Positions 1-48,065 of a stretch of 53,909 nucleotides of DNA are shown piece after piece; the first letter of the stretch is position 1, and every line of letters starts with the position of its first letter. Where the stretch lies: contig JAYWIR010000161.1 of assembly GCA_036172245.1 (NCBI GenBank), positions 1-53,909 of the forward strand, given 5' to 3'. The notes beneath the pieces were generated by a model. The model was not told the DNA's origin and did no database searches. It saw only the letters and a program-made list of their open reading frames with translations. Source of the DNA: Raillietiella orientalis. Taxonomy: Eukaryota. The position numbers and the translations under genes are program-made.

Positions 1-435
1 CTGTTCCGGGCTGATTGAGACGTTTGCCACCGGTCCCTGGCGCTCAGCCTAAATTTTAGCATTTCAGTTGGCATCCGCATTCACTATTGTGATGGAACGC
101 CAGTTGTTCATGCTCATCAGATCTCCTCCCTGAGGGAGGAGCCGCACCTTTGCCGGGCGAAACGACTTGGGAACGTCGCCTGTTTCGCGTATGAGCAAGG
201 TGAGTTGTACCAGGGGGGTAAGCTCAGCTGCGAAAGTTTGATGAAACTCCGCGGACAGGCCGTCCTTCCCTGGAGCCTTGTGCCTCTCGAGCTTGCCGAT
301 GGCCAAGATAATCTCGCTTATCGCAAAAGGCTCGCCGAGGCACTTTTCGTCCTCCTCCTTGATCGCTTGAGAGCCTTCCGGAACCAGGAGTCGTGAGACA
401 TCCCGCTCAGGAGGCGTTTTTGCGTACTGGGAGGC
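1..435 (-). pseudogene. LINE ORF2 fragment (linker and RT N-terminus), runs off the window edge
   Basis: ORF 64..471: KAPGKDGLSAEF, LLPQGGDL..NNWRSITIVNADA. Confidence 0.9.
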
Positions 436-1440
436 GTGCGGACGTGTTTTTTCTGCGCTCCTGCCGCACAAGTTTGCGAAAGTTTTTCTTTATTCTGTTT
501 GTGATTAATGCATCGTCGGTGTCCCATGGCAGGAATGCCTTAGGACACCGCGATGTAGATTGAAAGGGGAGAGGCTTGTTCCTCTCCCTAGCCCACGCAG
601 GTGGAAGCAACCGCATCAAAGGAGGAGAGAGCAACCGCAACCTTGAAAAAGGGGGAAAGGCCCTCCTGGAAAAAGTTGCAACCGTTCCCCTGAAAAAGAG
701 AACAATTGCGTCATTGGATCCGTCTGCTGCGACCACAAAGACCTGGAGCGCAGTGGCTGCAGCGCCATCTCCTGGGCCATAGCAGAACAGCGCGCCTACC
801 TGGAACAAGGATACAAGCCGTCCTTGATTTACAAGGTAGGAAATCTGTTTGTAGGTAATACCGCCCGCAATTTCGAGAGGGAATTGCAGCGGCTAGATGT
901 TAAAGAGGAGAACCTGGAAGGTCTTTCAGTGCTCAGTGGGGGCCAGCGGGTGAAGCTTACTTGCAGAGATGCAAGCCTGGTTCAACGCCTGTTGAATATT
1001 CCCCTCATGCTGGAAGGCCGAAAGGTCTTTCCGGCAACCGAGGATCGCTCTGTAGTATCGCACCTCACAAGAGTAACCTTGCGAATGTCAAAAACCGGCG
1101 TGAGGCAAGAATTAAACAAATATGGTACGGTACACGCGGTCTGGACCAAGCCTAACGTCTTCCAAAGTTAAGGAAGATTGTTCAGTGGCATGGCAGCAGC
1201 GCGTGTGACTGTGCATGAAAATGGTATGTTATTTCACAAACTGGACGTCATCAACGAAAAGGTCGACGTCTGGTACTATGGAAACTGTGATGCAACAGGG
1301 AACCTGAAAAACAGTGCTCCTACATCCAGTGTTTCTACTGCGGGGAGAAGGGCCACCTCTGGAAAGTGTGCCCAAAGCATGAAGCTCCAGCGCCCTTTGC
1401 CTTAAAAAAAGGTAAGGGAAAACGCGTGGAGAAAACAAGC
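436..1440 (+). pseudogene. LINE 5' end and decayed ORF1 (RRM-like region, CCHC knuckles)
   Basis: 5' motif GGACGTGTTTTTTCTGCGCTCC at 440; TWSAVAAAP, IYKVGNLF, YGTVHAVWTK, CGEKGHLWKVC, all homologous to ORF1 at 7614..8759. Confidence 0.85.
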
Positions 1441-1680
1441 AAGCTTCCAGGGCTTTCTTCTGAGCTGTACCCTCTGCCAGCCTTCGCCGTCGCCAGCGTC
1501 GTCGGGAGTGCTCTCAACCGACGTTTGCTGGGATGACTTAGGGACTGGCTTCTGGCTCCTAACAGCCTGCTTCATGGTATTCGTCTCTCTTGCCCGTTTC
1601 CCCTTTGCCATTTTGGCAGCGGGAGGAACCGGGATTTCTTGTCTTGGGCACACCTTGCGGATATGGCCCTTGTTTCCACA
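1441..1680 (-). pseudogene. LINE ORF1 C-terminal fragment, tail-to-tail with the preceding ORF1
   Basis: CGNKGHIRKVCPR...EGWQRVQ, matching the knuckle and EGWQKV of ORF 19096..19578. Confidence 0.8.
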
Positions 1681-2437
1681 TAAGCATAATCAACAAGGAG
1701 GTGGGTGAGAATTTCTCGCTCCCCACACCTGATGCAGGCAGGATCTACTCGACCTATCGTCCAGTGGTGTCGGCGTGCGTTGCAGGGTAGACCCCAGTGC
1801 AACAGGAGCAACGCCGACTCTTGCCACTTAAGGGGCACGATTCTGGATTCCGTCATTACTGGGGGCCACTTCAGCTCATCCCTAGGGTTGGCGAGCAGCT
1901 CGACTCATCTCAAGATTCAACGCGGCTACACGCTTGGGGTCTTGGCGTCCGCCAGATAAACCATGGTCCAGGCGCTCATCTTCTTCTCTTGTCCCTCGAT
2001 GCAGCAGGAGACTTGCTACTTTGGCGTCCGGCTTCTCTGAAGCTCCCTCCTCAGGGAGGGCATCGCTGTTGCAAGGCAGGTTGTCTTGGCCCACGTGCTT
2101 GTAGCACGACTCTCCAAGAGATCCCGCAGCGTATAGGGGGCGTAGTGGCCGCATAGGAGACGATTCCACGTTTCGTGGCTTCTCCGGTTTACCACAGCCC
2201 AGGTTCCGATGTCCTCCTCCAACCAGGCGGAGGAGTTGGCAAGGCTGCAAACCATCCAGCGGTTCCCCATAGCCAAGGTTGCCATGCACCCGAGCAGTAG
2301 GCCGCATCTTCTGATCTTCCGGCCAAGGCACAGAAGAAAGGACACGAGTCCCTCGAACCGGGACACACGGCTGGCAAGGAAGCGGGGCGGAATGCATCAA
2401 GGGGTGCTCCCTAGCTTCGCTGCGATCACGACGGTGC
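1681..2437 (-). pseudogene. LINE ORF2 C-terminal fragment (CCHC region)
   Basis: PLKWQESALLLLHWGLPCNARR..DPACIRCGEREILTHLLVD. Confidence 0.85.
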
Positions 2438-4798
2438 GAAATCACAGCGAATTAGAATCCGTAATGAGCCCGCAGCAGAATTATACTGTTCCCGGGCGAA
2501 GTATGGATGCCAACCTCTTCTTGGCAAGCACTTGGGTGAACCTGCAGAGAACACAGAAGAGAGGGGAAGGAAAAATCGGAAACCCCACAATGGGGACGCC
2601 AGCTGGGCAGGGAAGGGAACCCCGGGTGGGGAAGGGAGCCCTTGCGATTGCAGTCGATCTCCATAAGGCGTTCGACTGTGTAGATCAGGAACTCCTCTTG
2701 TAGCTCCAGGGTCGCATGAGCTTCCCACACTCCTTGATCACCTACCCGCGCTCTTGCTGGCGGAACGCGATGATCTCGATCTCTTTCAGTGGTCAAAAGG
2801 TGTACGCCTTGCCGGTGCGGCGGGGTATAGGGCAGGGCGATAGCCTTAGTCCCCTGCTTTTTAGCACCTTCTTTGAGTTCGTGATGACAGCATACAGGGT
2901 GAATTTGGCCCCCTTGTCGAGCTCGTGCCCCGGCACGCCCGCCGTAGTAGCATGTGCCGACGATCTCCTGCTCTTGTTGCCAATGTGCACCCCGACAAAG
3001 GCGGTCGGAGAATTCTTCGATCTGCTCTGCCGCGGGGTCGGACTGTAGGTTAACAGGGCGAAGTCGTCGGTGATGCCAGGAGGTGCGGCGTGAGCAGGGC
3101 AGAAAGATTAGTTCCGTCTTTGGATCCCCACGGCAAGGTGCTACAAGTACATTGGAGTGCCATTGGGGAACTACTCCCCTGCGGAAGCGTGGTCCAACTG
3201 CCTTCAAAAACTCGAGACGGCGATCGGCCCGTTCCTGGAAGGCAAGTTCCATTTGCCGGAACGGGCTGCGGCTTAGAACGCCTTTGCGGCCTTCATCCTT
3301 CGCCCCTTGCTTTTCGTTTGCCACCCCACTGTTGAATCGAAAAAGACGACAAGGGACCTCCGCATCGCCCTTCGAGGCAAGGGAAGGTGCCGAGCCCCTT
3401 TGAGAGACTTATGCGCGCCGCGTCGGGACGGCGGTCTTAGCCTCCTGTCGCTGAAGCGCGTGGAGATATAGCTGCGATGGCAAACCGTCGACATCGCAGC
3501 GAATCTATGGAGCACCCTTTGGTGAATTGCGGCTCGCATCCTGGCCAGCCGTGTGTCCCTGTGCAATGGACTTGCGTCTTTTCTTCTTAGCATTTTTGCA
3601 TCTTTGAGCCTCGGCTAAGAAGAAAAGACGCAAGTCCAAGATGCAAAAATGGGGCCTACTGCTAGGTCGCATGGCAACCCTGGCCATAGAGAACAGCTGG
3701 ATGGTTTGCTGCCCCGTCAACTCCCCCGCCTGGTTGGAGGAGAACATTGGAACCTGGGTAGTCGTAAACCAGCAGAGCCACGAGACGTGGAATCGTCTCC
3801 GATGCAGCCCCTAAACCCGCTGCACGCTGCGGAATCTCCTGGAGAGTCCAGCAAGATACAAGGGGGCAGAGACGACCTGCCTAGCTACGGCGCTGCCCTT
3901 TCTGAGGAGGGCACTTCACAGCAGCCGGACGCCAAGGTGGCAAGTCTCCTGCTGCATCGAGGGACGCGAGAAGTTGATCAGCGGCTGGACAACAGGAGAA
4001 CTGGCAGACGCCACGACAACGAGCATCCAGCAGCGAGGATTATTAAGATGGGGCGAGCTGCTCTCCATCATAACGGATGTGCTGAAGTGGACCCCGATAA
4101 TCAAGGACTCCAAGATCCTGCCCCTTAAGTGGCAAGAGTCGGCGTTTCTACTGCTGCACTGGGGTCTACCCTGCAACGCGCGCCGCTTCCATTGGACGAG
4201 GGGAGCTGTGGATCCTGCGTGTTCCAGGTGCAGAGGGCGGAAATCTCTCCCTCTCCTTATTATGGTTTGTGCTGCCCTCCGACTTCTCTAGGAACGGTTC
4301 GGTACGACCCTCGGTTTTCCTACGGGCAGTGCACCCAGAGACGTTTTCCGCCTCCTGTTCGTGCGGGATGCCTTGCAGCCAGCAGCGCTCCATGCAGCCC
4401 TGTGTAGCGTCCGATGTATCGTGGCAGCTTGGAGCGATGCCAGCAGCGAAGATAAAGATTGGAACGAGAAGGAGGTAATCCAGCATGCAGTACGCTTTTT
4501 GCAGAGAGGTGCCCGATGGCTTCATCTGAGAAGTATGCGGACAGACCTCGATAGCTTCCTTCGATGGATGGGCCTTTCTCATAGCGTTTAGTGATTTCTT
4601 CCCTGCCCTCCAAACTTTTTTGGTTTGTTTATTTCTTGTTTTTTTTTGGCTTTTTCCCATCCCGTTTCACTGTCGGAAAGTGCCACGCCGGGCGGCGACC
4701 CAGTGTCACATAAAGTCCCGTGTCTAAGGCCGCTGTGGGGCCTTATGCCACGTATGTTCAGTTTTTTAATAAACGCCCCTGGCGTTCCCCGTTGGCAA
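2438..4798 (+). mobile_element. 5'-truncated LINE (RT to 3' terminus)
   Basis: PGRSMDAN, VDLHKAFDCVDQ, RRGIGQGDSLSPLLF, ACADD, CSRC, T-rich 3' UTR, AATAAA and terminal motif at 4768-4798. Confidence 0.9.
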
Positions 4799-5220
4799 CG
4801 CCAAATCCGGGAGGCAGGTGATCCAGGGGGAACTGCTCGCAGAAGTCTCGGACCGAGTCCTTGAATTTGTCCTAGTCCTGGAGAGTCTGAAGTGTCACGC
4901 CTCTCAGAAATTTGCGAAGATGTTCCTTCGCACCTTAGAGTCGCGTCCAGTCTACCGGCAGAAGCCACGCCCTGGATGAAGAGCGCTTGTCGCGAGGCCG
5001 CATCTCGAAAAAAATCCGGGAATGGTCCGACAGCATCGACGCGATCTACCCCGTTTGCCGACCAGTGAACACAGGTCAGCGTCGACGAAGGCGTGGTCGA
5101 TGCTGCGGTCCATTCCCCTCTGACCCGCGAACAAGTTGCGTGTACGCATGGCGGCGCACAACTCTTTGATCGCGTTCTATTTTGTTTCAGGCTCACCTGT
5201 TAGCAGGCGGAGCTTGAAAT
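4799..5220 (-). pseudogene. LINE APE endonuclease C-terminal half
   Basis: Reads NFKLRLLTGE..LCAAMRTRNLFAGQRGMDRSIDHAFVD; homologous to 15530-15933 and 32210-32640. Confidence 0.8.
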
Positions 5221-5250
5221 TTGTCACCCGGTGACTCCGGGGCGTTTATT
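5221..5250 (-). terminator. LINE 3' terminus: AATAAA followed by a CCCGG-N5-CCGGG hairpin (representative of 8 copies)
   Basis: Sense sequence AATAAACGCCCCGGAGTCACCGGGTGACAA; related copies start at 4768(+), 8609(-), 11788(-), 15934(-), 19538(-), 24139(+) and 36228(-). Confidence 0.8.
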
Positions 5251-7402
5251 TATAACAATAAACTAATAAGGGACAATGTCCCCAACAGAACGACAGGGAA
5301 CAGAGAGAAATCACCGGCACGTAGGCCTGGTAAACAAACCGCTCGCAACGTGGGAGGAATAGGGGGATGACAAACAAAAATACAAAAACTGGAGGGAAGG
5401 GTAACGAGTTTTCGGTTAGGCTCCGTACTCACGGCGATTCAAGCGGGGAGCACCTGAAATGTTCCGGCGCCTATGGAAACGCGGGCGTAAAAGAAAATAC
5501 AAAATTAGTTCATGGAGGGAAGGCTAATGATCACCGGGTTGGCCGCTGCTGAGCGTGTGTAAACCGGCGGTGTATTTCGGCAAGATTCCTTTTTGACTCC
5601 TCTGTCAAATGAGGCCATCTAGCGGCTGCTTCCACTCAGAAGGATGCTTTGCCGATTACTTCTTCGTGCTGCCCGTAGATTACTAACGCCTGGTGGACTG
5701 AAACTATCGCGCGTATGCAGTCGATGGTTGCAATCCTTGCGCATAGGAACAGCCCACTCGGCATGAAGTATCGTCGCAGCAAGTCTCTTGCGGTGTCCAC
5801 GGGATGCATTAGTGCTGTTGCCAGCCTACGCCACGGTCCTTGTAGAACATCGCAGTCCAGAAGTAGGTGCAGGATCGACTCCGTAGACACGCACCGAACG
5901 CAGTTCGCATTTGCAAGTCCCCTGAAGTCTCGATGCCAACGCTCGTTGCATTGAAAACCCAAGTGAACGAAAAGAAGCACAACTTGTTTCCAAGCAAGAA
6001 GTAGCAGCGAACTGTCAACAAACTGTGGAGGAACTACAAGTTCTTCAAAGATGACAGCAAGTTCTTCTGCCCACCGGAGGAGTCCCTTTGAAGTAGAACG
6101 AGGAGTGGCGGCGTCCGATAAATCACTCGTCTTCCAGGCGCCAAGGAGTTTTGTTTTCCCCGCTATCGTGCAGGAAAAATCCCACCTCGCCGGTTGGCAA
6201 CTGTCGTTTCCAGCCCTGAGGGCAGACAGTCCTGCGGCGAGAGGCGAGGCATCCAGGGTAGAAAACTTCACCTCGTCCTGCAGTACTTCTTTGAAAGATG
6301 GGGAGAAAAGATGGCGCAGGGTGTCAAGATCTCCAGGGCGCATTCCTTTGAACGCTGCCCAGTACTCAACAGACTCCTGCCGGAAAGCTTTGAAGTCCAT
6401 TGGGCGACAGGGAATCACGAATGCGCTTCCAGAAGTGCAGTCAACTACTGCAATGGAAATCCAAAACCTCGCTTGCAGTATTGGGTGCCCGGCAAAAGCG
6501 ACAGCAGTCCTCCGTTATCGGCGCATCTTTGCAGGAGAATAAGTTCAGGCAGACACGGGGGGATCTCCACAGCCGAGCACACAGTGCCAGCAGTCGGAAG
6601 TGCACCTGCAGTCCGATTCGGTGTATTGACAGGATACCCAAATCAGCATCCCGACGTGGAAGAGCCAAGTCTTTAAGGCGGATCCTGGATCTCGTCGGAA
6701 CACAGAGAGCGTTCCTAAGCACATGTTTAGCACGCTGTTCTGCAGCATAATGGGGGTCCGAAACCAAAAAAAGGCGGCAGAGGAGGGGGGACACAAAGGT
6801 GTTCCGAATAGTCGCCCGTTCCTTCAAGGTAAACTTGTTGTTAATAAACGATCTGAGGGGAAACTCGGCTTTCCGAAGGCAGTCCGACCACGCTTTGGCT
6901 GCGCCGACAGCGCACAACGGATAGTTAAGGTACTTAAAGTACCCGACCGTGGGGATCCCCAGGCGGATCAAGTATGACTGCCCCTCCCACGACGCACCAA
7001 ACGGAACGACCACGCTCTTCTCTCTGTTCACGCTCAGGCCCACACCCCGATGGATCAGTTCGAAAAAATCTTCGACACTGGACTCCGGGGTGGACATGGG
7101 GAGCAGAAGAAGCAGGTCGTCTGCATAGGCAGCCACGGAAGGCGTACCCGGGCAGAAGTTTGGCAAGTGAGACAGCGTCAGCCTGTACGTTCTCAGCACC
7201 AACACGTGAGAAGATACTGAAGAGCAACGGGCTTAAGATGTCATCCTGTCTGATGCCCCTGCGCACGTAAATACCGTACACGTGGCAGCCGCTAAAAGAA
7301 ATGCATGTAAGCGCGTGGCGCCAGCAAGCGCGCAAGTACTTCAGGAGATGCGCCGAAGTACCCAGACGTTCAAGAAGCTTAAGAAGAGCCCCTGGTTCAC
7401 GC
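5221..7402 (-). mobile_element. 5'-truncated LINE (RT core to 3' terminus)
   Basis: ORFs 6934..7335, 6441..7205 (AYADD, FKYL) and 5636..6418 (CVRC..HLLLDC); terminal motif at 5221-5250. Confidence 0.9.
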
Positions 7403-11046: not shown

Positions 11047-11787
11047 CCGCGACGGTCGCGTACGGACAAGCTTTTGCGTCGCTCCGAGGTAGATTGGCTC
11101 TTGTGTATTTTTGTTCTGCTGTGCTTCTGTGCTGCAATGGGAGCAAAGAAGAACATCAGCCGCAAGAAGGGAACGCCACCTGCTCCTGAGATGGCTGCTT
11201 CGGCTGCTAGCTGGGAGCCTCTGTCCTTGCCGACGGCGAGGACATTCGCCCAGGTCGCTGCCCTCGCGGCTACGATGGGACCTTCGCCCGACATCTCTGA
11301 GCTTCAGACGTATGTAGCAAATGGCTACACGCCTGCACTCTGATATAAGGTGAGCGTCCTTATGCCTGAGCAGCTTGGGCGCGAGTTTGGCCAGGAAGTT
11401 CAAAAGATTGGAGTTCAAAAAGGCCAACTAAGGTCCATCATGCCCATGAGTGGGTGCGGCTACTGAGAGGTGTCAAGTAAGGACGCTTTCCTTACGCAGC
11501 GTTTGCGGCACACGCCTCTGCTCATTCGTAGGCAGGAAATACTCCCTGTCACAACGGACAAGTCGTTCGTTGTCCGGCTCAGTGGAGTGTGTGAGGGCAT
11601 TTCCGACCGCCAGGTCTTAGAGGCCCTTGAAAAATTCGCAATTGTCCACGTGCTATGGAGGCTGCCAAACCCTGCTGAAGGGTTCGAAGACCACCACAGC
11701 GGGCCCGCGTAAGTGCGAGTGACCATGACGGGTCGCCGTGCTATGCCCACGCTACTGCAGGCGGATAGATTGACGGTCGGCCTGTGG
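11047..11787 (+). pseudogene. LINE 5' end and ORF1 N-terminal part (divergent subfamily)
   Basis: 5' motif GGACAAGCTTTTGCGTCGCTCC at 11064; RTFAQVAA..YVANGYTPAL, FVVRLSGV..ALEKFAIVH. Confidence 0.8.
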
Positions 11788-21130: not shown

Positions 21131-21298
21131 GCAACCCGTTGCTAGGGATGCTCAAGGGAACCCCGCGCTTCCCTCTGACCAAGAAGATCATGCAGAGGAT
21201 AGAACGAACTCGGCGGGAGCCTTTGCCGTCGTGGTCGATTTGCAAAAAGCATTCGACTGCGTCGACCAGGATCTCCTTCTGGATCTCCTGGAACGTCG
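21131..21298 (+). pseudogene. Short RT fragment, head-to-head with the preceding element
   Basis: AFAVVVDLQKAFDCVDQDLLLDLLER (ORF 21129..21332). Confidence 0.85.
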
Positions 21299-24168: not shown

Positions 24169-24212
24169 ATAGCCGCCTTCCGGAGATCCGTTCGATCTCT
24201 TGCGCTTGCAAA

Positions 24213-28200: not shown

Positions 28201-31075
28201 CGACTCTCGTACTGATCGAAGTACTTTGAGAGTGAGCGATCTTGGATCTTCAGCTCCCGGGACGCTTCCTGCATCAAGCGCCTATCCACGAATTGCATAT
28301 TTGCAAACAGGAGTATCCTGTGTTTCAAGCTGTCCCAGTCGGCGACTCTTCTGATTTTTGTGGTCTTCAGAATCGTCTCCAGGATCTCCTCATGTCCAGG
28401 ATGTGTCTCGAAACAGGCGGCCATGTTGATGAGCGCCGCCCAGGCGCCTTGCCTCCGCCCAGGATTCTCCGTTCTTAGGGAAAACCGCATCAACGGGTGA
28501 TCGTACAGAGTGCTCAATGTGTCTCGAAAACCCTGAATGCGATTCCCAAGTTCGGTGCTGTGCAGGACGTGATCGATCGGCTTGTGACTTGCTGTTCGCC
28601 ACAGCAGTCCGAACTCGTCGGAAAGCCGCCAATACTCCGTCCATCTTCTGGAGTCTAGGGAATGAGTGATGTCATCCAATATGTTGAGATCGCCAGAAAC
28701 AATCACGAGGTCCTTAGGGGCGACCTTTTCAGAGAATGCTGCATAAAGCGCCTCCGCACAACGATGTTTCAGCCTGTGGGGCCCGTACTCGTTCACCAGG
28801 ATGAGTGGAACAGTAGCGGACCAGGCCTGTCGCACGCCGATGATTCGTCCGGGTTGGGGACAGAACACTTCCAGAATAGTGGTGGCAAAGTGTTTCTTCA
28901 TTAGAACCGCCACACCCTGCGTGTTCCGTTTTACCTCGCGTACAAACATCTGCTCGTTGAATCGCCGTTCCATTCGCTGACAAATTTCGAGACCCATATT
29001 GTGGGTCTCCTGCAGGCCTTCTATGTCTTGTTGTGCCATGTTCTACACAATCATTTTTTTTTCCCCAGTCGACCACAGCGTTTACATTCCAGGAGGCGAT
29101 GTTCAGCCTCCTAGCAGTCGATAGGGAAGAGGCCATAAAAGGGGAAGACCTATTTCTTCGCATTCCTAAGCTTCTTCTGTCTGAGAGAGCATGCTCTTCC
29201 AGACGACGAAGAAGCAGCGGGCTTCTGGCTGCCGGAGTCTCTCTCCGTTCCTGTGAGGTCGATTATTTCCGTTTCCTCCTTCGAGTGTTCGGCATGCGCG
29301 ATCAATTTTCGACATAGCCCACCCATGTCGACCTTGGCGCACAAGATCGCCTTTACGTCGAGAAGCTGTTCCTCTCTCTAGCTTCTTTCGCTCGGTGACC
29401 TCCACAACCTGGTTGACGTTCTCCTTTGCATTGCAGATCTTCTGCAAGATTTTCTCTTGCTGGGGACCGCTCTGCACATCTATAACTTCATTAGCCAGTG
29501 ATGTTGGCTCCTCCGTAGATTGCAGGGCCTCCTGCGACACCGCACTGGCTTCGGCTATTTCTTCTTCCGCGCCTTCCTGCGCTACCTTCATCTTCTCGCC
29601 TTCTTGCTCTTCACCTTTTAGGATAAGAGGGGTTTCTTGCTCCTTGACGTGCACCCTTCTCTTTCCTCTCTTCCCTACCTGTATGAAGCCGTCTTGCGAT
29701 ACCGGGACGGTTTCTTTCACCTTCTTCGGCCTCCCTTCCAACTTCTGAGGCTGTTTGGCCTCCTTGATGTTTCTCTCTCTCACGGGAGAGAGTCCTCTAA
29801 TCCTTCTGCAATTGGCGAAAACAAGACAGCTCCATTTAGCACGTCCGCGTTTCTTGCAGAAGGAGCACACCTCCGGCTGCGGACAGTTTCGGACTTGATG
29901 TCCTACTCAGCCGCAGCGGAAACAACGACACGTTGGGCAAGCGCCGGCCCTGCGGCCAAACTCCTTGCACCCGGTGCAGAATATCGACTGTTGCCGGTAA
30001 CGCACGTTCAAACCCTGGGATCGTTCGTCAAGAAAGGCTAATCCAGGGATAACAGTTCCCTCTTTCTACTTCATTTCGGCGATCATGTCGCCAGAAAATA
30101 TATTTCCAGAGAAGTTCTGGAATTCAAGGTCCAGAACTTCCCCATACTGCTCCAAAAAGTTCCACACCGTTAGTTGCGGTGTGAGGATGGAGATGCCGTT
30201 TAAAAAGACGGTTGTGTATGGCATCTCGCCAATACCACAAACCATCCGTCCTTGTATATTGATCCCCTTCTGGATCAATCGCTCTCTAATCTTTTCACAG
30301 TCTGTGAAGACTGTGAACCCGTTGTTTGCTGGTATGATCGCCTGTATGCTATCAAAATTCATGTCCGTTTTATCGAGGGACAGATACACCTCCCTGATAT
30401 TACTGAACTTGATCAGCCCAGTCTTCAAAATGATGGGCTTCACATTCGGCCCAAACTCCACGATCGGCCGATCCACCTTTTGGACTTTACCGCATAGCGG
30501 CTTCCCGGATTTTCTAGGTGGGTGGACACTCGCTTGTCCAGCCGCCACCGACGCATAGGGAAAGGGCTGCGCCGCCGCAGCTGAAGAAGATGACGTCTCG
30601 CCCTGAACCGCGTGGACGCCCGCGGGTCCTGCCTGGGACGCCGCCGCTCCGAGCGCAACCCTCGACGTCGCCACCGTTGCCACCGCGGGCGGCACCCTCG
30701 GCATCGGCGCCGCAGGCGCGACCTTCCCCGCCGCGGGCACGATCCTCGGCGTCGCCACCGTGGGCACGACCTCCCCCGTCCTCGCCGCGGGCACGACCCT
30801 TGGCATCGCCGCCGCCGGCGCAGCAAATCCAGCCGCGGGCACGATCTTCGTCTTGCCTTCCACCGCCTCGCCATTGCTGCACGTTACCTCCATGGCTTCC
30901 ATGGGGGACGACGTTATCTCCACTCCTCCTCTAGGTGCCTGCATCCTGGCAGCTGGTCTTGCTGCACGGGACCACGGCAGGTCTTTTGCCGCGATCTCCT
31001 CGGCGCTTCTTTTGTAGTTTCGTCTGGAAAACTTCCCCTCTCCGGACACACACGAGCACAATTATGTGATTAAGT
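25281..31075 (-). mobile_element. Near full-length (~5.8 kb) decayed L1/Tx1-type element of a distinct family
   Basis: Colinear ORF1 (30066..31061, then knuckles CSFCKKRGRAKWSC), EN (IASWNVN, LQETH, GDLN, IDH, YDH), RT (QWRPISILNSD, DMEKAFDSIDH, LAYSDN, KYL) and degenerate C-terminal CCHC (25623..26135). Confidence 0.92.
30630..30850 (-). repeat. GC-rich coding tandem repeats in ORF1 (PRxVPAA units)
   Basis: KIVPAAG..MPRVVPAA..TPRIVPAAG..MPRVPPA. Confidence 0.7.
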
Positions 31076-33985
31076 TGTCGAGCGCACAATACTTTGAGCC
31101 GCGAAGCAAGTTCACCGACTTGGCAGGAGATGAGCAATCTCCCGACTGTCAAGAAGGTGACTCCGTTGCCGCCTTTTAAAGGCGTAGCGAAAGCAACGCC
31201 CCTACAGAACGCAGCGAAAATCCCGGAGGTTTCCGCAACTACTGTCGCGGAAGCCTCCGAAAATCGCAAAAGCGAATGGAAGGTTGTGGAGAGGAGGAAA
31301 GAAAAATCTCCAAAAAAAGCTCCGCAACATCCATTCCTGAGCTCTTCCAAAGGAAAAAGCAGTCGTGGGAATACGAAAACACGCGCGGCTTGTGCCTCTT
31401 CCAAGGAAAAAGCCAGCGCCTTCAACGCGTGCAAGTCCGCTTCTGTGACCGCCGAGAAGACCATTCCGATGCAATCGGACGGATGCAAGCGCACGTCGAT
31501 CGTGCGAGCATCAGACTCCGCAAAGGACTCCGATAGCCCAGCTGAACGACGCGTTACTCGCGCGGGAGCGAGCGCCCGCAGGGCTGAAGCCCTGAGGCGT
31601 GACACACTCGTCGCGGAACGGCGAGCGCTTACCCCGGAACGCACAGGTTCTGCACCTGGGGAGGAGCACCCGATTACGTGCAGCACAGTTGAGGCCGGTG
31701 GCGACTGCGCCCTCCAGCCCGTCGTGCTGCTTACTGCCCGCTCGCCGGGTGAGGCGAGCTCCACGGCCTCGCTTTCCCAGCCGTGATGAGGGCAATCGCG
31801 TCTTCTCGTCGTCTTGCCGTAACGTCTTGGAACGTCAACGGGCTCCAACACGAGGAGAAAAGGCGACTAGCGAATTGACGCTCTTGCAGGAGATTCACAG
31901 CATCTCCGGAGAGCAGGCTGCCGAAATCGAACGGCGCGCGGGCGGAACGCTACTTTATAGGTGCGGCGTTGCACTTACGTGCGGCATCGCTTTCCTCGTG
32001 CGATGAGCTTTGGCGGAAGCGGTGCGCAGCGTTCGTTTCGACACAGAAGGCCGAGTGGGACAGCTTGCACTCAAGTGGTCCGACTCGATCGACCTTGTCG
32101 TAACCAACGTGTACGCGCCGAGCGGTGCTGGACGATGGGCCGAAAGTATTCATTTCTTCGGTACCCTTCAAAGCCAGTGGCTCACTCGATCTCACCCTAC
32201 TGTGGCCCATCTCATTGCGGGGAAATTTTACGTCCATCTGCTTTCCGAGAATAGATCCCACAAAAGGGAAAAGTTGCTAGCGGAAGAGATGTGCGCGTCC
32301 GTGCACGCGTGCAACTTGTTCGCTGGCGACCCTGTTATGGCAGCAACGCCGGACCACGTATACCTTGAGGAACACTTGCTCAGTCGAGTGGGTCGGAGAG
32401 GTCCCGTGCCATCCGTGCTTTCAGACCACAACAGGCTCGAGTTCAAGATGCTCCCGCCAGGCAAGGGGCCACCAAACTGTTTTTGGAGGATGCCAGCAGA
32501 CTGGCTAAGTCACCCGGTGGTGGTGGAGCATCTTCGCCAGTACCTCCGCTGCTCCGCCATCTGTTAGCTATCGGATTGGGACCATCTGAAAAAATCGGTC
32601 CGCGAATTCTTCTGCCGGTTACCCTTGCACCAGCTTCCGCGCGGCTTCGGAGAGTCCGTAGCCAACAGCAGAGAATTTATGCAAGCTGGCTCCTTGTTCA
32701 GGCGCGCGGACGTTGGTCGATTACCCGAGTACAAGGCCACTGCCGAGCTCCAGGTCTAATAGTCAGGGGCGACAGTTCTGCTCGACGACCAGGACCGGGA
32801 ATGCTCGGCTCCAGCCGACGTGCGACGGATAGTCAGGCGCTATTACTCTTCTCTGTATGCAGAGGCACCGACGGAACGGAGCCTCTCCCGGCTGCTTCTG
32901 CCGATTGATGCACCTGTTGTGGACGAGGAGGAACGCGCGCGTCTTGATGAGCCCTCCACGGCAGAGGAAATTTCCTCGGCTATATCGGGGATCAAGAGAC
33001 AAAAAGCGCCAGGCGAAGATGGGCTCCGCGCGGAATTCTTTCAGTGTTTTGCGGCGGAACTCATCCCCCTGGTGCTCCAACTCTCGTCGCTGATGCGAGA
33101 CTCGGGCGATGTCCCGCCTCGTTTCGCTCAACGAAGGTGCGTCTACTGCCGAAAGGCGGAGGTTTGCGCCAATTGAACAACTCGCATCCGATCACATTAG
33201 TGAATTCGGACGTAAAGTTGTTCTCGAAACTTTGGGTGGCGCGGATGGGTAGGATCGCGGAATCCTTGGTAAGTCCGGAGCAGACGTACGCTGTTCCTGG
33301 GCGGTCCATGGACGCGAATCTCTTGTTCATCCGCACATGGCTTCAATAGCATCATCGCATGGCGATGGATCGTCGTGCGGAAGCGACGCCTTTGATCTCT
33401 CACCGACGGAGGCGCGAGTCGCAATGGAAAACCCCGGGAGCCTTGGCGGTTGCAGTCGATTTCCACAAAGCTTTCGATTGCGTTAACCAAAAGCTTCTTC
33501 TTGAGCTCTTTGATCGTCTGGGCCTCCTTGCATCTTTATTGGCATACTTGCGCTCCTGCTGGCGCCACCCGATCACATCCATTGTTTTCTGTGGCTCTCG
33601 TGTGTACAGCGTGCCAGTGCGGCGAGGAATTAGGCAGTGCGATAGCTTAAGCCCGCTGCACTTTACCATCTATTTTGAATTGGTGCTGGAGGCTTACAGG
33701 CTGACGCTAGCAACCCTGCCGAGCTCCTCTCCAGGTACGCCGTCCGTGGCAGCCTATGCAGACGACCTGCTTCTTCTGTTGCCCATGTCCACCCCGGCAG
33801 CGTCACTTGAAGATTTCTTTGAGTTGATCCGTCGCGGTGCAGGCGTGAGCGTCAACAGAAGCAAATGCGTGGTTGTTCCGCTGCGAGCGACGTGGGAGGG
33901 GCATTCCAAACAAATCTGTTTCGGGGTCTCCACAGGCAGGTACCTGTGGTACCTCGGCGAGCCGTTGGGAGACTTTTGCACCTCG
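31076..33985 (+). mobile_element. LINE from the ORF1 tail through EN and RT, 3'-truncated
   Basis: ORF 31094..31786; SWNVNGL near 31825; VTNVYAP, PDH, LSDH; KAPGEDG; ORF 33359..34108 (DFHKAFDCV, AYADD, YLG). Confidence 0.9.
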
Positions 33986-36227
33986 AGAAACGGCGTCTGC
34001 AAAATCACTCATTTAGCAGGCAACCCGGAGTTTCGTTCTTCCTGCTATCATGCAGGAATCCTCACAGCGTGCCGGTTGGCAACTGTCTCCCCTTGCCCTG
34101 ATTCCTGAGGGACGTCAGCGGCTATCTGAGAGGCAACTTAACTTTCAACACCTCACCTTTTTTTAACTAAAAAAAAGTAGCAAATGATCTGCATAGGCAG
34201 CCACGGCAGGCGTTCCCAGGCAAGAGCTAGGCAAGTATTCCAGCGTCAGGCTGTACGTTCTCAGCATCAAGTCAAAGATGCTGAAGAGCAACTGGCTTAA
34301 ACTGTCGCCCTGCCTGATGCACCTGCGTACGGGAATACCTTACACGTGGCAGCCGCTGAAAGAAATGCAGGTTGGCGCGTGGCGTCAGCAAGCGCATAAG
34401 TAATTTAAAAGTTGGGCCGGGACACCGAGGCATTCCAAAAGCTCCAAGAGGAGTCTTTGTTTTACGCAATCGAACGCCTTGTGGAGGTCGACTGCGTCCT
34501 CCAAGGCACCCGACGTTCCCTCCTGCCGCTTCTGCCGATACCGTGTGCCTTTGTCAGCGGCCTTAGACATGGATCGTCTTTGCTGCGATACGCTCTCTCG
34601 CAGCTACATCCATGTGCGGGCAAACAGGAGGTTCACGTCCGTGGACCGCACGGAGTAAGTATGCTCGGGACTTATCAAGGACTGCGCGACTCTTACTAGT
34701 CGCGCTACCCGCATCTTGGAGAATAATTTGACGTCCGAGTTCACTAAGGTGATCGGACGCCAGTGGTTCAGATGACGTCGTCTCCACCATTCGGCAGGAG
34801 ACGCACCCTCGCTGAGCGGAAGGAACTGGGGACATCCTCCGAAACCCTCATCAGCGATGAGAGGATAAGCACCAGGGGGACCAGCTCCGCCGCGAAGCAG
34901 TGATAAAATTCCGCAAACAGCCCATCCTCGCCTGGCGCTGTTCGTCTCTTGAGCTTCGCGATTGCAGAGGAAATTTCCTCCGCCGTGAAGGACTCGTCGA
35001 GACGTGAGCGTTCCTCTTCGCTAACAACGGGAACATCCTGGGAAAGTAGTATCTCCGAAAAGATATTTGTCGTAGGCGCTTCCGCGTATAACGAGATGTG
35101 ATAACGCCTTACAATGCGGCGAATACCGGCTGGTGTCGAGCATTCCAGGCTTTGTTCGTCGAGAAAGCAAGATGCTCCAGACTGCCAGACCTGGCGCTTG
35201 CCCATAGCCTTGTATTCCGCAAGCCGGCTGACATTCGTGCGTCTCGAAAAGGTGCGCGCCTGCAGAGAAGTCTTGCTGCTGGTGACACCTTCGCCGACCT
35301 GCCCAGCCAACGAATCGGCCCATCTCCTGCAGCAGGGCCAGGTCGAACGCACGCAGGGTGTTGGCCGTATCCCGCTTGTTGCCGTCGCCGCGCAGCCCGT
35401 TGACATTCCAACAAGCCACGCGGATCCGATGGCGACAGGCGAGCCCAGGTGCTAATCCTGGGAAATCGGCATTGCGGCGTCCGCCACCTGTTGGGGCTCG
35501 ACGCTAGGAGGAGGAGGGAGGTGCTTCGGGCACCTTGTCTTCCTCCTCCATTGGGGCCGGTGTGTCCGGCGACTATGACGAGGGAGGTGTCGCGCCTACC
35601 TGTTCACCCTCCTCCATTGGGGCGGGCTGCTCGGGTTCGGCGTATGCAGGGAAGCCTTCGCTCCATTGCTCACCCTCCTACGTGGAGGTCGTCTGCTTAC
35701 CGGCTTCCGAGCGTGAGAGTTCCCCCTCCGGGTTTCCCACGCTTCCATCGGCTTCCGGCTTCTCTTTCTCGCTCGTAGACGGGAGGCGCCTCCTAGACTT
35801 TGGGGAATTTCGTCCCGCTTTCCGGGATGGTGCCTTCGCGGAGGAAGATAAACTTCCCGCCCCCAGATCGGACTCATCTGCGGGGCCTTCCTCGTTGTAG
35901 CCGGCTTCCGCATGGCCATGCGTGAAGGGTTCTCACGCTCGGCAAGTATTGCCGCGAGCTCCTCCGCCGCCTTCTCGAAAGCGGCGTCCTCGTTTGCGGC
36001 GGTCGCGTCGCGCGGCCCACGGTCTGTTGAAACAGACGGTTCGCCTTCGCGAACCTCAGGCGCGGCGCAAACGGCGAGAGGAGGATCTTCGCTCCGGGTG
36101 GCAGCTTTGGGAATGGCGACGCGCTCCAGTGCTACCGAGCACTCACGGAGGGTTCCGGCACGCGGCTTCTTTTTTTTGAATCGCGACAGGCGCGACTTTT
36201 CTCCTTTTCCCCCCAGGCAGGTCGGCG
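33986..36227 (-). mobile_element. Internally deleted LINE: ORF1 tail, EN start, RT, plus a short C-terminal scrap (33990-34150)
   Basis: ORF 35596..36234 (RECSVAL); MACWNVNGLRG..LALLQE; TAPGEDG; DLHKAFDCV. Confidence 0.85.
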
Positions 36228-38200
36228 ATGCCACCTGGGTGCTCCGGGACGTTTATTGAAAAAACTTTTTATTCGTCATTACAGTACGTGGTACAAGGGC
36301 CCACTAACGGATACTTAATGAAGGACCTGCAGGGACACCGGGATGCAGCCCGGAGTGACTCTCCTCGGCAGTGGAAGGGGATGGGGGGAAAAACAAAAAG
36401 AAAAACAAATCAGTAAAAGAAAAACAGTTTTTGGAGGGAAGAGAGGGGATCACAGTCCACTGGGAAGAGAATCCATCCTTAGTAGGATACCCTCGAGGTC
36501 CTCCTTCAATCTTCCCAGCTGGGGCCATCCAATAGCTCTCCGCAGGAAGCGAACAGCATATGGGATGACGTCTATTACGGTGGAATCTTCATCTACGTCA
36601 TCACTCCAGACCGCCACGATACCACGAATGCAGCAAAGTGCTGCCAGGGCTGCGGTTGGACTGAGGGCGTCCCGCACGAAGAGAAGATTGTACACGCCTC
36701 TGGGGTTGCCACTATCCGGTATCCCAAGGGCTTTTCTAAGACATTCTTAAAAAAATCCGGACGGTAGGGCAATCAACTAAGAGGTGGGGGAGCGATTACC
36801 TCCCCCCACACCTAGCACACGCAAAATTTACACTTCCCCGCGTCCAGTGGAAGCGGCGCGCGTTGCACGGTAGACCCCAATGCAGCCACAGAAGCGCCGA
36901 CTCTTGCCACTTCAGGGGAAGAATCCTGGAACAAATTAAAACCGGGGGCCACTTCAGGTCATCCGACCGGATGCCGAGCAGCTCGCCTTATTTTCTTAAT
37001 CCACGCGGCTGGACACTAGGCGTCGTAGCATCTGTCAGCTCTCCCATGGTCCAGCCGCCCATCGTCTTTCTGCCTGCGATCCGGCAGGAGACTTGTCACC
37101 TCGGCTTCCGGCTGTTGTAAAGCGCCCTACGGAGGAAGGGCATCGCCGTAGCAAGGGGTGTCCCTTCTGCCCACGTGCAACTCGCTGGAAATTCAAGAAT
37201 TTCACGCAGAGTGCTGCGGGCGTAGAAGACGACTCGCAGGCAGTTCCACGTCTCGTGTTTCCTCTCATGTATCTTCGCCGGAGCAGGTCGCATCCTCGCA
37301 TCTTCCGGCCGGAGCACAGAAGATAAGACGCTAGTCCTTGCGTCCTGGAGACACGGCTGGGACAAGTTCCTGGAGAAGGCGAGCCGGTACGCACCAAGGG
37401 GTGCTCCACAACTTCGCTGCGATGGCCAAGGTGCGCCATCGCAGCTGGATTACCAAGAGATCCAGCATCAGGAGAACAAAACCACCGTCCCGACGCGGAG
37501 CGCATAAGTCCTTCAGAGGCACTTTAGGCCTCTTCTTGCCACAGAGGGCTATACGGAGTAGGTCCTTTGTCCTCTTCTTCAACTGGGGGGCAACGGGGCA
37601 AACAAAAAGTAGGGGGCGAAGGATGGGAGCCGCGGATGCGTTTCATACCGCGGCCCGTTCCGGCAAGAGGAACTTGCCCTCCAGCAACGGGCCGACCGCC
37701 GACTCCACTTATTGGAGACGACCTGATTAGGCTTCCGACGTGCAGAAGTCCCCCAACGGCACGCCAAGGTATTTCAGGTACGTGGCCGCGGGGATCCCCA
37801 AGCGGATCCACTCAGGACGTCCAGCCCACGTCGCACCAACCGCCACCACCGACGACTTTGCCTTGTTCACCCTTCTTCCCGTCCCGCGGCTTAGCAGATC
37901 GAAGAAATCCTCGACTGCGGCTGCCAGGGTTGACATGGGTAATAACAGCAGAAGATCGTCAGCGTACGCTGCCACGGCAGGCGAGCCGGGGCACGAGCTC
38001 GGCAAGGGGGCCAAAGTCGCACTATACGCTCTCAGCACCAACTCGAAGTAGATGCTAAAGAGCAGGGGACTGAGGCTGTCGCCCTGCCGTATCCTACGCC
38101 GCACCAACACGCCGAAGGAAACGTTGATGAGCGCGTCGCACCAGCTGGAGCGCAGAAACTGATAATGAGGCCGGGAAGCCCAAGAGTTCCAGGAGTTCCA
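36228..38200 (-). mobile_element. 5'-truncated LINE (RT core to 3' terminus); last element of the array
   Basis: ORF 37727..38110 (IRQGDSLSPLLF, AYADD, KYLG); ORF 36450..36695; terminal motif at 36228-36257. Confidence 0.9.
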
Positions 38201-47890: not shown

Positions 47891-48065
47891 GTCATGCATT
47901 GAAGTGTACTGTGATATTGTTGCATGAAAAAATTCCAACATGCAACTATTTACTCATTGCTGATAGTTGTTTAAATTATTCTCATGGCAATTATGATGAT
48001 AGAAAGTCTGCAGTTATTCAATGTTTGAAGCTAAATCAAATTCTTTGGATCTTTAACATGATGTG

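What the first reader, a model, noticed from the sequence alone, without database searches (positions are those of the whole stretch)
1..38200. At least 38 kb of pure LINE nest: self-targeting retrotransposons with an antisense bias
Seen: about 25 fragments from several subfamilies with no recognisable host DNA, none of this family after a sharp boundary near 38.2 kb, and no target-site duplications that I could find. Among intact termini (duplicated block counted once), 5 of 6 5' ends (440, 7430, 11064, 24217, 31075; exception 18442) and 6 of 8 3' ends (4798, 8609, 11788, 19538, 24168, 25281; exceptions 5221, 36228) abut a LINE on the opposite strand. Known: Zepp/ZeppL LINEs of green algae insert into each other and form clusters, which are centromeric in Chlamydomonas; Drosophila telomeric LINE arrays are head-to-tail instead. 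Inference: a LINE lineage that homes to its own relatives, usually in antisense, building a candidate centromeric domain or a dsRNA/siRNA-producing locus.
Basis: partly seen in the sequence, partly recalled or inferred. Interest (0 to 1): 0.75.

Follow-up and report, generated by a model that had tools for sequence, protein, structure and literature searches.

The report
LINE-only island of nested retrotransposons
The first 38 kb of this window is a GC-rich block built only from broken copies of related LINE jumping genes stacked into and onto each other; the claimed backwards-insertion bias is not significant here, but front and back halves of the elements sit on opposite strands in a repeating pattern.

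Summary
Positions 1-38203 are a pure nest of L1-type LINE pieces. I assign 24 pieces, covering 99.0% of the bases. They belong to several deep lineages (65-80% nucleotide identity) and include one near-complete 5.8-kb element. The edge at 38203/38204 is sharp: GC falls from 57% to 45%. No target-site duplications exceed chance.

The orientation count does not hold. The 3' end at 24168 and the 5' end at 24217 lie on the same strand.

The non-random features are different:
- All five independent intact 5'/ORF1 pieces are on the plus strand, while ORF2 pieces are 3 plus and 10 minus (p=0.0065).
- Three independent head-to-head joints link a truncated minus-strand ORF2 to an intact plus-strand 5' end.
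- Four of eight 3' termini land in the ORF1 tail.
- One composite block was duplicated at the DNA level.

My best reading is self-nesting at junction hot spots, with 5' inversion or reuse of the same nick, followed by rearrangement. The centromere and dsRNA ideas could not be tested here. This scan has reported similar islands on other pieces of this genome.

The parts
1..444 (-). X_A: ORF2 piece (U1764-2210, runs off the window). Its 5' edge is at the codons 'SQYAKTP' and is joined head-to-head to e440.
   Evidence: tblastn map; translation
440..1450 (+). e440: intact 5' end (GGACGTGTTTT) plus ORF1 with a CCHC knuckle. The far end is unclear; 1450-1683 is unassigned.
1683..2448 (-). A': ORF2 C-terminal piece (U3210-3969). 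It is the copy-1 counterpart of 13486-14240 (80.6% identity).
2454..4798 (+). A(+): 5'-truncated copy (U2187-4455) with an intact 3' terminus. It was inserted antisense into A' and its flanking piece, with about 1.3-1.6 kb of host missing.
4799..5220 (-). Piece 1: the end of APE into the linker (U~1155-1595), ending at 'LPPGFG'. It is the left part of duplicated block copy 1.
5221..7429 (-). X_C: ORF2 from the KAFD codons ('HKAVDC', U~2393) to an intact 3' terminus at 5221.
7430..8609 (+). e7430: intact 5' end and a fully open ORF1 (412-aa frame). It is cut 116 nt after the tail W codon by the 3' end of X_D.
8610..11063 (-). X_D: ORF2 from 'SRMRETGDV' (U2001) to an intact 3' terminus at 8610. 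The RT hit is RVT_1 at 3.8e-19.
11064..11787 (+). e11064: intact 5' end (GGACAAGC variant) and a decayed ORF1. It is cut after 'TVGLW' by the 3' end of E.
11788..13136 (-). E: ORF2 C-terminal part (U3189-4455) with an intact 3' terminus. Its 5' edge meets an internal point (U4265) of A(-).
13137..15520 (-). A(-): ORF2 U~1890-4265, lacking the last ~190 nt of the 3' UTR. It is joined to piece 2 with about 285 nt missing.
15528..18410 (.). Duplicated block copy 2: piece 2 (-) 15528-15933, X_G (-) 15934-18060, and e18075 (+) 18076-18410. It is 82-88% identical to 4799-7722, evenly across its parts.
18442..19537 (+). e18442: intact 5' end inserted, same strand, into e18075. Its ORF1 has a CCHC knuckle and is cut about 90 nt after the tail W codon by the 3' end of X_H.
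19538..21165 (-). X_H: ORF2 U2882-4455 with an intact 3' terminus. It shares a 3' UTR type with E.
21195..21785 (+). An RT scrap around KAFD (21195-21327), followed by an ORF1-tail piece (W codon at 21466).
21786..24168 (+). C': ORF2 U2095-4455 with a 3' terminus at 24168. It is 70% identical to X_D.
24217..25280 (+). e24217: intact 5' end (AGACGTGTTTT) and ORF1 with a CCHC knuckle. It is cut 55-75 nt after the tail W codon.
25281..31075 (-). Div: a near-complete 5.8-kb element of a distant lineage (ORF1 with CCHC knuckles, APE, RT). A minimum of 12 frame disruptions. It is single-copy here, so its exact ends are unverified.
31076..34165 (+). R5: ORF1 tail (W codon at 31277), linker, APE ('VTSWNVNGL' at 31819) and RT up to U3091. 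It ends tail-to-tail against Y.
34169..36227 (-). Y: ORF1 tail to U2708, with about 750 nt of APE deleted. It forms a 1.1-kb inverted repeat (68% identity) with R5.
36228..38203 (-). Z: ORF2 U2425-4455 with an intact 3' terminus joined, same sense, to the 5' edge of Y. Its truncated 5' edge is the edge of the island.

Best explanation
SHOWN.
- Positions 1-38203 are an old island made only of decayed L1-type LINE copies. These have ORF1 with CCHC knuckles, ORF2 with APE, RT and a C-terminal zinc-binding region, a conserved 5' start RGACGTG, and a 3' end with AATAAA plus a hairpin and no poly(A).
- Several deep lineages are present.
- Every element 3' terminus is joined to another LINE piece.
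- No TSDs are detectable.
- At least one composite block was later duplicated as DNA, and several copies carry internal deletions.

INFERRED, and what I commit to.
- The island grew by target-primed reverse transcription into resident copies at a few junction hot spots. Chief among these is the Lys-rich tail of ORF1, with the APE-linker boundary second.
- The apparent antisense excess comes from a repeated module rather than from a general antisense preference.
- In that module, a minus-strand copy starts from its 3' end in the ORF1 of a plus-strand piece and runs back to a variable truncation point in ORF2. There it is joined head-to-head to the intact 5' end of a plus-strand 5'/ORF1 segment.
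- I read the head-to-head joint as a 5' inversion of the incoming element (twin-priming-like, with the region between ORF1 and mid-ORF2 lost), or as stacking of successive insertions at one reusable nick.
- Segmental duplication, deletion and at least one inversion-type join then reshaped the array.

I put about 0.85 on 'self-nesting LINE island plus later rearrangement'. I put about 0.4 on 5' inversion as the origin of the head-to-head joints. The confidence figure given for this explanation (0.5) is for the whole statement, including the module reading.
For: - Domains and termini.
- Best solved-structure match of the RT is human L1 ORF2p at 3e-13.
- Piece map in one coordinate system.
- Strand asymmetry: 5'/ORF1 pieces are 5 plus and 0 minus, while ORF2 pieces are 3 plus and 10 minus, with duplicates collapsed (Fisher p=0.0065).
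- Three independent head-to-head joints, each with 14 nt or less between ORF2 codons and the 5' motif. They are X_A|e440 at SQYAKTP, X_D|e11064 at SRMRETGDV, and X_C|e7430 at HKAVDC.
- U-shaped representation along the element. There are six intact 5' ends and about ten RT-to-3' parts. The APE core is present only in R5 and Div. No minus-strand ORF1 homologous to the five e-element ORF1s exists anywhere (Div carries its own unrelated ORF1).
- Because the right edge of the island lies inside the window, the right-hand remainders that simple nesting requires are truly absent.
- ORF1-tail hot spot: 3' ends fall at W+116 (e7430), W+~90 (e18442) and W+55-75 (e24217), and at W-6 in sense orientation (Y). 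The first two fall in the same alignment columns within about 3 nt, in hosts that are only 37-58% identical.
- DNA-level duplication: identity is uniform at 82-88% across flank, 3' UTR, coding sequence, junction and 5' part.
- A clean post-duplication antisense insertion with host loss: A(+) at 2454-4798.
Against: - No TSD flanks the proposed composite units C or D. Human L1 5' inversions carry 10-20 bp TSDs (PMC4245944, passages read).
- 1.3-2 kb is missing between the inverted and direct parts, whereas in classic twin priming the two parts are nearly adjacent (this point is recalled).
- Frame-disruption counts hint that unit partners differ in age. e7430 ORF1 has 0 in 1.05 kb against 5 in 1.9 kb for X_C. 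e11064 has 3 in 0.64 kb against 3 in 2.2 kb for X_D. Each comparison gives p of about 0.06, the measure saturates, and the two differences point in opposite directions.
- Two of six intact 5' ends (18442, 24217) abut same-strand pieces, so the module is not universal.
- Several joins link two internal points (13136|13137, 34165|34169, 21327|21330). No insertion model explains these.
- Only three independent head-to-head joints exist here.
- Earlier scan notes report joints at the same SLYA and KAFD codons in other windows. That fits sequence-directed insertion better than random truncation. I did not check those notes.
Confidence: 0.5

Rival explanations
1. Russian-doll nesting by target-specific LINE lineages. 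Each lineage nicks its own fixed site inside relatives' coding sequence, mostly on the antisense strand. Under this reading the minus-strand ORF2 pieces are hosts cut by full-length plus-strand guests, which are in turn cut by the next guest.
For: - The left-hand series X_C | e7430 | X_D | e11064 | E alternates exactly as this model predicts.
- Two guests of different lineages (X_D and X_H) end within about 3 nt of the same ORF1-tail position in two different hosts.
- The joint codons found here (SQYAKTP, HKAVDC) and the APE-linker junctions match sites that earlier scan notes report in other windows (those notes are unchecked).
- The Tx1 clade of LINEs is known to target specific sites inside other transposons (PMC4494074, passages read).
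Against: - The mirror-image right-hand remainders are absent, although the island's right edge lies inside the window. There should be minus-strand 5' parts with ORF1 and APE, and plus-strand ORF2 remainders. I estimate about 15 kb in all (my arithmetic from element lengths, not from a call; piece map).
- No 5' junction site here is matched by a 3' junction at the same host position.
- Lineage F (E and X_H) used two different ORF1 sites.
- The tail hot spot is also used in sense orientation (Z into Y).
- No TSDs are present.
Confidence: 0.3
2. An ordinary transposon graveyard in heterochromatin. On this reading the pattern mainly reflects DNA-level segmental duplication, inversion and deletion of a few old composite joins, with no targeting and no special integration route.
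For: - A composite block of at least 2.9 kb, and probably at least 4.9 kb, was duplicated. Divergence is uniform at about 15%, including non-coding junction bases.
- Internal deletions are seen: about 285 nt at 15520/15528 and about 750 nt of APE in Y.
- There is a tail-to-tail join of two internal points at 34165/34169, and an internal-to-internal join at 13136/13137.
- Copies are 20-35% diverged, so there has been ample time for rearrangement.
Against: - After collapsing the duplicate, three head-to-head joints remain, at three different ORF2 positions and with three different ORF1 lineages.
- Four 3' termini cluster in about 2% of the available sequence (my estimate, about 840 nt of 38.2 kb).
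- The termini themselves are intact and conserved, as expected of primary insertion junctions.
Confidence: 0.2
3. A functional overlay that does not exclude the readings above. The island is a centromere core, or a small-RNA (piRNA/siRNA) source locus.
For: - The island is LINE-only, gene-free and GC-rich, with a tandem 278-bp array 12.8 kb beyond its edge.
- Retroelement islands flanked by satellites form Drosophila centromeres (PMC6516634, abstract and passages read).
- Zepp/ZeppL clusters mark green-algal centromeres (PMC8226300, passages read).
- Long imperfect inverted repeats exist: 32662-33775 against 34175-35282 at 68%, and 2454-4622 against 13137-15255 at 79%.
Against: - Nothing here measures CENP-A, transcription or small RNAs.
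- The satellite does not abut the island.
- Earlier scan notes list many such islands on many pieces of this genome. Some are 9-kb patches beside ordinary genes, which argues against one cluster per chromosome (notes unchecked).
- The inverted repeats are only 68-79% identical.
Confidence: 0.12

Closest known systems
Zepp (Chlorella/Coccomyxa) and ZeppL-1_cRei (Chlamydomonas) L1-type LINE clusters
   Same: These are L1-type LINEs that insert into existing copies and build LINE-only clusters with many 5'-truncated copies (PMC8226300, passages read, citing Higashiyama 1997).
   Different: - Zepp arrays are described as tandem arrays made mostly of 3' ends. Here, intact 5'/ORF1 segments are over-represented and lie on the opposite strand to the 3' parts.
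- Several deep lineages take part here.
- The elements have no poly(A) tail.
- The host is probably an animal, and the best named relatives are arachnid, frog and plant proteins at 32% identity or less.
- One cluster per chromosome and CENH3 association were not tested.
5'-inverted L1 insertions made by twin priming (Ostertag and Kazazian 2001, seen only as a citation; PMC4245944, passages read)
   Same: An inverted 5' segment is joined head-to-head to a 5'-truncated direct 3' segment. The inverted segment comes from upstream in the element.
   Different: - Here the inverted segment always reaches the true 5' end.
- 1.3-2 kb between the two segments is lost.
- No TSD flanks the composite.
- The outer end of the inverted part is usually met by the 3' terminus of another copy.
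- In the cell assays of PMC4245944, 5' inversion was seen almost only with human L1 in human cells.
Target-specific Tx1-clade LINEs (Tx1 in the piggyBac element Tx1D; Tx1-Mar in Mariner-N4_AMi; Tx1-8_Crp and Tx1-4_AMi in LTR retrotransposons; Tx1-9_AMi in Harbinger)
   Same: These are APE-type LINEs of the L1 group whose endonuclease selects a defined site inside another transposon family (PMC4494074, passages read).
   Different: - The targets here would be the coding sequences of sibling LINEs. That paper lists no such target.
- Site precision here rests on two or three events.
- Clade membership was not tested.
Drosophila centromere islands rich in the non-LTR element G2/Jockey-3
   Same: These are arthropod islands of 2-140 kb made of complex DNA rich in non-LTR retroelements, next to satellite arrays (PMC6516634, abstract and passages read).
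   Different: - The Drosophila islands mix many transposon types and are directly flanked by simple satellites.
- Here the island is a single LINE group, and the nearest array is 12.8 kb away.
- No CENP-A data are available.

Membership tests
L1-group APE-type LINE (L1/Tx1-like) | ORF2 with an N-terminal APE endonuclease followed by reverse transcriptase | tested here: met
   - Exo_endo_phos at 28.2 bits (cutoff 24.5) in Div.
- RVT_1 at up to 69.7 bits in eight frames.
- The APE start motif 'WNVNGL' is read in R5 and Y.
L1-group APE-type LINE (L1/Tx1-like) | RT closest to L1 ORF2p rather than to other LINE clades | tested here: met
   Among solved structures, human L1 ORF2p scores 3e-13 and R2 scores 7e-12. 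The margin is small. No clade phylogeny was built.
L1-group APE-type LINE (L1/Tx1-like) | ORF1 with CCHC zinc knuckle(s) | tested here: met
   zf-CCHC scores 22.3 and 21.5 bits (cutoff 20.8) in frames 19039-19575 and 24730-25215. CCHC strings are also read in e440, e7430 and Div.
L1-group APE-type LINE (L1/Tx1-like) | C-terminal zinc-binding domain (zf-RVT) | tested here: inconclusive
   Eight frames hit PF13966 at 15-20 bits. All are below the 27.5-bit cutoff.
Tx1 clade, target-specific | Independent copies of one family share one exact 3' target site and one orientation | tested here: inconclusive
   - Two 3' ends, from different lineages, fall within about 3 nt of each other in the ORF1 tail. 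A third lies 20-40 nt away, and a fourth is in sense orientation.
- Lineage F used two different sites.
Tx1 clade, target-specific | Phylogenetic placement inside the Tx1 clade | not tested
Zepp/ZeppL centromeric LINE cluster | New copies insert into existing copies | tested here: met
   8 of 8 independent 3' termini abut LINE sequence. This test is weak, because the whole region is LINE.
Zepp/ZeppL centromeric LINE cluster | Tandem arrays made mostly of 3' ends | tested here: not met
   Only 3 of 8 3' ends are head-to-tail with the next piece. Six intact 5' ends are present, on the opposite strand to most 3' parts.
Zepp/ZeppL centromeric LINE cluster | One cluster per chromosome, absent elsewhere; CENH3-bound | not testable with these tools
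   No genome is held. Unchecked earlier notes list many islands.
Twin-priming 5' inversion | An inverted upstream segment joined head-to-head to a truncated direct 3' segment | tested here: met
   Three independent joints, at 440, 7430 and 11064.
Twin-priming 5' inversion | Both segments copied from one RNA molecule | tested here: inconclusive
   The segments share no overlapping sequence to compare. Decay counts differ at about p=0.06 in two units, in opposite directions.
Twin-priming 5' inversion | A TSD flanks the whole composite | tested here: not met
   No repeat of 5 nt or more flanks units 5221-8609 or 8610-11787. Age could have erased short TSDs.
Drosophila-type centromere island | A retroelement island directly flanked by satellite arrays and enriched in CENP-A | not testable with these tools
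   A 278-bp x 9.2 array lies at 50963-53495, 12.8 kb from the island edge. No chromatin data are available.
piRNA/siRNA source locus | Abundant small RNAs map to the locus | not testable with these tools
   No RNA holder is listed.

The most novel reading that the evidence does not exclude
A guild of related L1/Tx1-like LINE lineages in an animal genome uses its siblings' own genes as landing sites, above all the ORF1 tail and the APE-linker boundary. Integration is completed by a homology-assisted 5' inversion, so each event adds a '3' part on one strand plus intact 5' part on the other' module. GC-rich, LINE-only islands would then assemble themselves. They could serve as safe havens, and possibly as centromere or small-RNA domains.
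Probability: 0.22. Interest if true: 0.8.

Novelty: new variant of a known kind. Interest (0 to 1): 0.45.

Why it matters
If LINE lineages really home to fixed sites in each other's coding sequence, that would add a new class of target to the known target-specific LINEs. It would also explain how gene-free retroelement islands build themselves in an animal genome, much as Zepp clusters do in green algae.

A regular 5' inversion that always reaches the true 5' end would be a new flavour of twin priming outside mammals.

As it stands, this window adds one more example, a corrected orientation count, and a clear case that DNA-level duplication inflates such counts.

Tried and rejected
- Whole genome: none is held, so family distribution, clusters per chromosome and genome-wide orientation could not be tabulated.
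- Sequencing runs: one holder only (X1, share 0.10, contigs), and no RNA holder is listed.
- Laying X1 on 1-20000 at 80% likeness: 463 contigs were laid. Only 16 are 99% alike or more, and 290 are under 90%. Most of the tables are cut (351 loose ends and 493 pieces are not shown). It therefore neither validates the assembly joins nor gives a usable genome-wide breakpoint profile. Loose ends at 15497, 15880 and 16179 coincide with piece edges, but they are too few to use.
- e24217 plus R5 as one element split by Div: rejected. Both carry their own tail W motif. There is no nucleotide similarity above shuffled controls (score 30 against a shuffled maximum of 37). No shared 7-mer is found at the flanks.
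- A tandem duplicate of one ancestral [X|e] unit as the source of all head-to-head joints: rejected. The joints lie at three different ORF2 positions. Only units C and G are true duplicates.
- A short target motif: CGAC lies within 16 nt downstream of 4 of 8 3' ends, against 5.7% at random. The motif was chosen after looking, so it is not significant once that is allowed for.
- Resemblance between the antisense ORF1 tail and the element's 5' motif: visible for e18442 only, and not pursued.
- Rfam and tRNA scans: no hits.
- ESM Atlas: only generic RT clusters.
- Protein database: one close fragment (59% identity, unnamed). Otherwise named hits are at 32% identity or less.
- Decay counts as an age proxy: the measure saturates at 3-5 per kb, so it gives only weak hints.
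- Earlier-notes look-ups by sequence and by neighbourhood returned nothing.

Full report
WHAT IS THERE.

GC is 0.52-0.60 in every 2-kb bin up to 38 kb and 0.39-0.48 after that. Stop-to-stop frames across 1-38.2 kb hit reverse transcriptase (RVT_1, up to 69.7 bits) and one APE endonuclease (28029-29042, minus strand). They also give weak zf-RVT hits, and zf-CCHC hits in plus-strand ORF1-like frames. The RT is closest to human L1 ORF2p among solved structures (3e-13). Named database relatives are 32% identical or less, from an arachnid, a frog and plants. One unnamed fragment is 59% identical. No genome is held for this window, so everything below rests on the window itself.

TERMINI.

Six plus-strand pieces begin with a shared motif, RGACGTGYTTT..GCTCC, followed by an ORF1. 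They start at 440, 7430, 11064 (a variant), 18076, 18442 and 24217. Element 3' ends share AATAAAYGYCCC, a short hairpin and GGTGRYAAA, with no poly(A). The motif scan gave 7 matches against 0.65 expected. The copy at 24168 has two mismatches, and I saw it in the alignment. The 3' ends lie at 4798(+), 5221(-), 8610(-), 11788(-), ~15934(-), 19538(-), 24168(+) and 36228(-). The 3' end of the single-copy element Div lies near 25281(-). I could place that end only by domain arithmetic.

MAP.

I used two window copies as a common ORF2 coordinate (U). I placed 24 pieces, listed under 'parts', and they cover 99.0% of 1-38203. Homology to the family stops at 38203. Beyond that point there is AT-richer DNA. 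It holds an R2-like RT remnant at 48892-49929, a weak APE-like trace near 38.9-39.3 kb and a 278-bp tandem array. No flanking direct repeat exceeded chance for 12 candidate inserts, which confirms 'no TSDs'.

ORIENTATION COUNT.

The downstream neighbours of the 8 independent 3' ends are as follows.
- 4798 meets minus-strand ORF2 at 'LPPGFG': antisense.
- 5221 meets a minus-strand piece at the end of APE: same sense. Its duplicate is at 15934.
- 8610 meets the ORF1 tail of e7430: antisense.
- 11788 meets the ORF1 of e11064 after 'TVGLW': antisense.
- 19538 meets the ORF1 tail of e18442: antisense.
- 24168 is followed by 48 unmatched nt and then the 5' end of e24217: same strand.
- 25281 meets the ORF1 tail of e24217: antisense.
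- 36228 meets the 5' edge of Y: same sense.

The upstream neighbours of the 6 independent intact 5' ends are as follows.
- 440, 7430 and 11064 each meet a truncated minus-strand ORF2: antisense.
- 18442 lies inside e18075: same strand.
- 24217 follows the 3' end of C': same strand.
- The 5' end of Div at 31075 meets R5: antisense.

That gives 9 of 14 (p=0.21), not 11 of 14 (p=0.029). The difference is the pair 24168/24217. Both are plus-strand by domain hits and by motifs.

WHAT IS NON-RANDOM.

(a) Strand by part. Intact 5'/ORF1 pieces are 5 plus and 0 minus, while ORF2 pieces are 3 plus and 10 minus, with duplicates collapsed (Fisher p=0.0065).

(b) Three independent head-to-head joints link minus-strand ORF2 codons to a 5' start motif. 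In each, the ORF2 codons run to within 4-14 nt of the motif. The joints are at 'SQYAKTP' (X_A|e440), 'SRMRETGDV' (X_D|e11064) and 'HKAVDC' (X_C|e7430).

(c) The far ends of four ORF1 pieces are met by antisense 3' termini. Three of these lie 55-116 nt after the tail W codon. Those in e7430 and e18442 fall in the same alignment columns within about 3 nt, although the two ORF1s are only 37-58% identical. A fourth 3' terminus, that of Z, joins the tail of Y at about W-6 in sense orientation.

(d) Representation along the element is U-shaped. There are six intact 5' ends and about ten RT-to-3' parts. The APE core survives only in R5 and Div, because Y has lost about 750 nt of it. No minus-strand ORF1 homologous to the e-type ORF1s exists anywhere; Div carries its own, unrelated ORF1.

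DNA-LEVEL CHANGE.

Blocks 4799-7722 and 15528-18410 are 82-88% identical, evenly across five parts. These parts are the flanking ORF2 scrap, the 3' UTR, the coding sequence, the head-to-head junction and the 5' part. This is a segmental duplication of a composite, not two separate insertions. It extends to 1683-2448 against 13486-14240 (80.6%).

After the duplication, copy 1 received A(+) (2454-4798) antisense, with loss of about 1.3-1.6 kb of host. Copy 2 lost about 285 nt at 15520/15528 and received e18442. The joins 13136|13137 and 34165|34169 connect two internal points, so they are not primary insertion junctions.

MECHANISM.

Simple Russian-doll nesting predicts the alternating left-hand series seen at 5.2-13.1 kb. 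It also requires mirror-image remainders to the right: minus-strand 5' parts with ORF1 and APE, and plus-strand ORF2 parts. These are absent, although the island ends inside the window.

A 5' inversion of the incoming element (twin priming: PMC4245944 passages; the original paper seen only as a citation) explains directly why a truncated 3' part is joined to an exact 5' end on the other strand. It also explains why the middle of the element is missing.

Several observations argue against 5' inversion.
- There is no TSD around the composite units.
- The gap between the two parts is large.
- Decay counts suggest that unit partners may differ in age (weak).
- Earlier scan notes report the same joint codons, SLYA and KAFD, in other windows (unchecked).

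A third possibility is repeated use of one nick whose recognition half-site survives each insertion, so that inserts stack. I therefore commit to 'self-nesting at hot spots plus 5' inversion or stacking, then rearrangement'. I put about 0.4 on inversion, 0.3 on target-specific nesting and 0.2 on rearrangement alone.

COMPARISON WITH KNOWN SYSTEMS.

- Zepp/ZeppL clusters also grow by insertion into existing copies, but they are described as tandem arrays of 3' ends in green algae (PMC8226300, passages read).
- Tx1-clade LINEs target fixed sites in other transposons: piggyBac, Mariner, LTR elements and Harbinger (PMC4494074, passages read). That paper lists no LINE target. I did not search the literature further for LINE-in-LINE site specificity.
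- Drosophila centromeres are retroelement islands flanked by satellites (PMC6516634, abstract and passages read). Here the nearest array is 12.8 kb from the edge, and nothing bears on CENP-A.

CENTROMERE AND dsRNA.

These ideas are untested. No RNA holder is listed. The one DNA run is not the same assembly and cannot check the joins. Earlier scan notes describe many such islands on many pieces of this genome, some of them small and beside genes. If that is true, it argues against one island per chromosome. The scan has thus met this phenomenon before on other DNA of this genome.

VERDICT.

This is a new variant of known kinds (self-nesting LINE clusters, target-preferring LINEs, 5' inversions). 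Interest is moderate.

Noticed in passing
window 50963-53495: A tandem array of a 278-bp unit, 9.2 copies, 69-88% alike, GC 0.385. It lies 12.8 kb beyond the island edge.
   Followed up: partly
window 48892-49929 (-), with 49332-49460 = 49906-50034: An RT remnant whose best solved-structure matches are R2 proteins (1.8e-25), so it is a different LINE clade from the island. It sits beside a 129-bp local duplicate at 97.7% identity.
   Followed up: partly
window 25281-31075 (-): Div is a near-complete 5.8-kb LINE of a distant lineage (RT about 30% identical to the others). Its ORF1 has several CCHC knuckles. I count at least 12 frame disruptions. It is the only piece with a Pfam-level APE hit.
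   Followed up: partly
window 7538-7619 and 18182-18293: 41-42-bp tandem repeats (2.0 and 2.7 copies) inside the 5' region of e7430 and its duplicate e18075. The copy number differs between the two block copies.
   Followed up: no
window 1-38203 versus 38204-50900: CpG observed/expected is 0.94 in the island and 0.68 in the flank. The island is not CpG-depleted, although it is old and decayed.
   Followed up: no
window 19483-19540 (-) versus 5' ends at 7430 and 18076: The antisense strand of the e18442 ORF1 tail just beyond the X_H 3' end (CGCGGACGACCGGTTTCTGC...) resembles the elements' own 5' start (GCGGACGTGTTTTCTCGG...). The resemblance is weak or absent at the other two tail junctions.
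   Followed up: partly
3' junction flanks at 8610, 11788, 19538, 36228: CGAC lies within 16 nt downstream of 4 of 8 3' termini, against 5.7% of random positions. The motif was chosen after looking, so this is only a hint of a target preference.
   Followed up: partly
window 32662-33775 versus 34175-35282: R5 and Y form a 1.1-kb inverted repeat (68% identity) whose arms meet tail-to-tail 4 nt apart at internal ORF2 positions. No insertion mechanism explains this join.
   Followed up: no
window 38854-39300 (+): A weak APE-like similarity to the endonuclease of Div (42-50% over 32-38 residues), just outside the island. It may be a decayed AT-rich LINE scrap.
   Followed up: no
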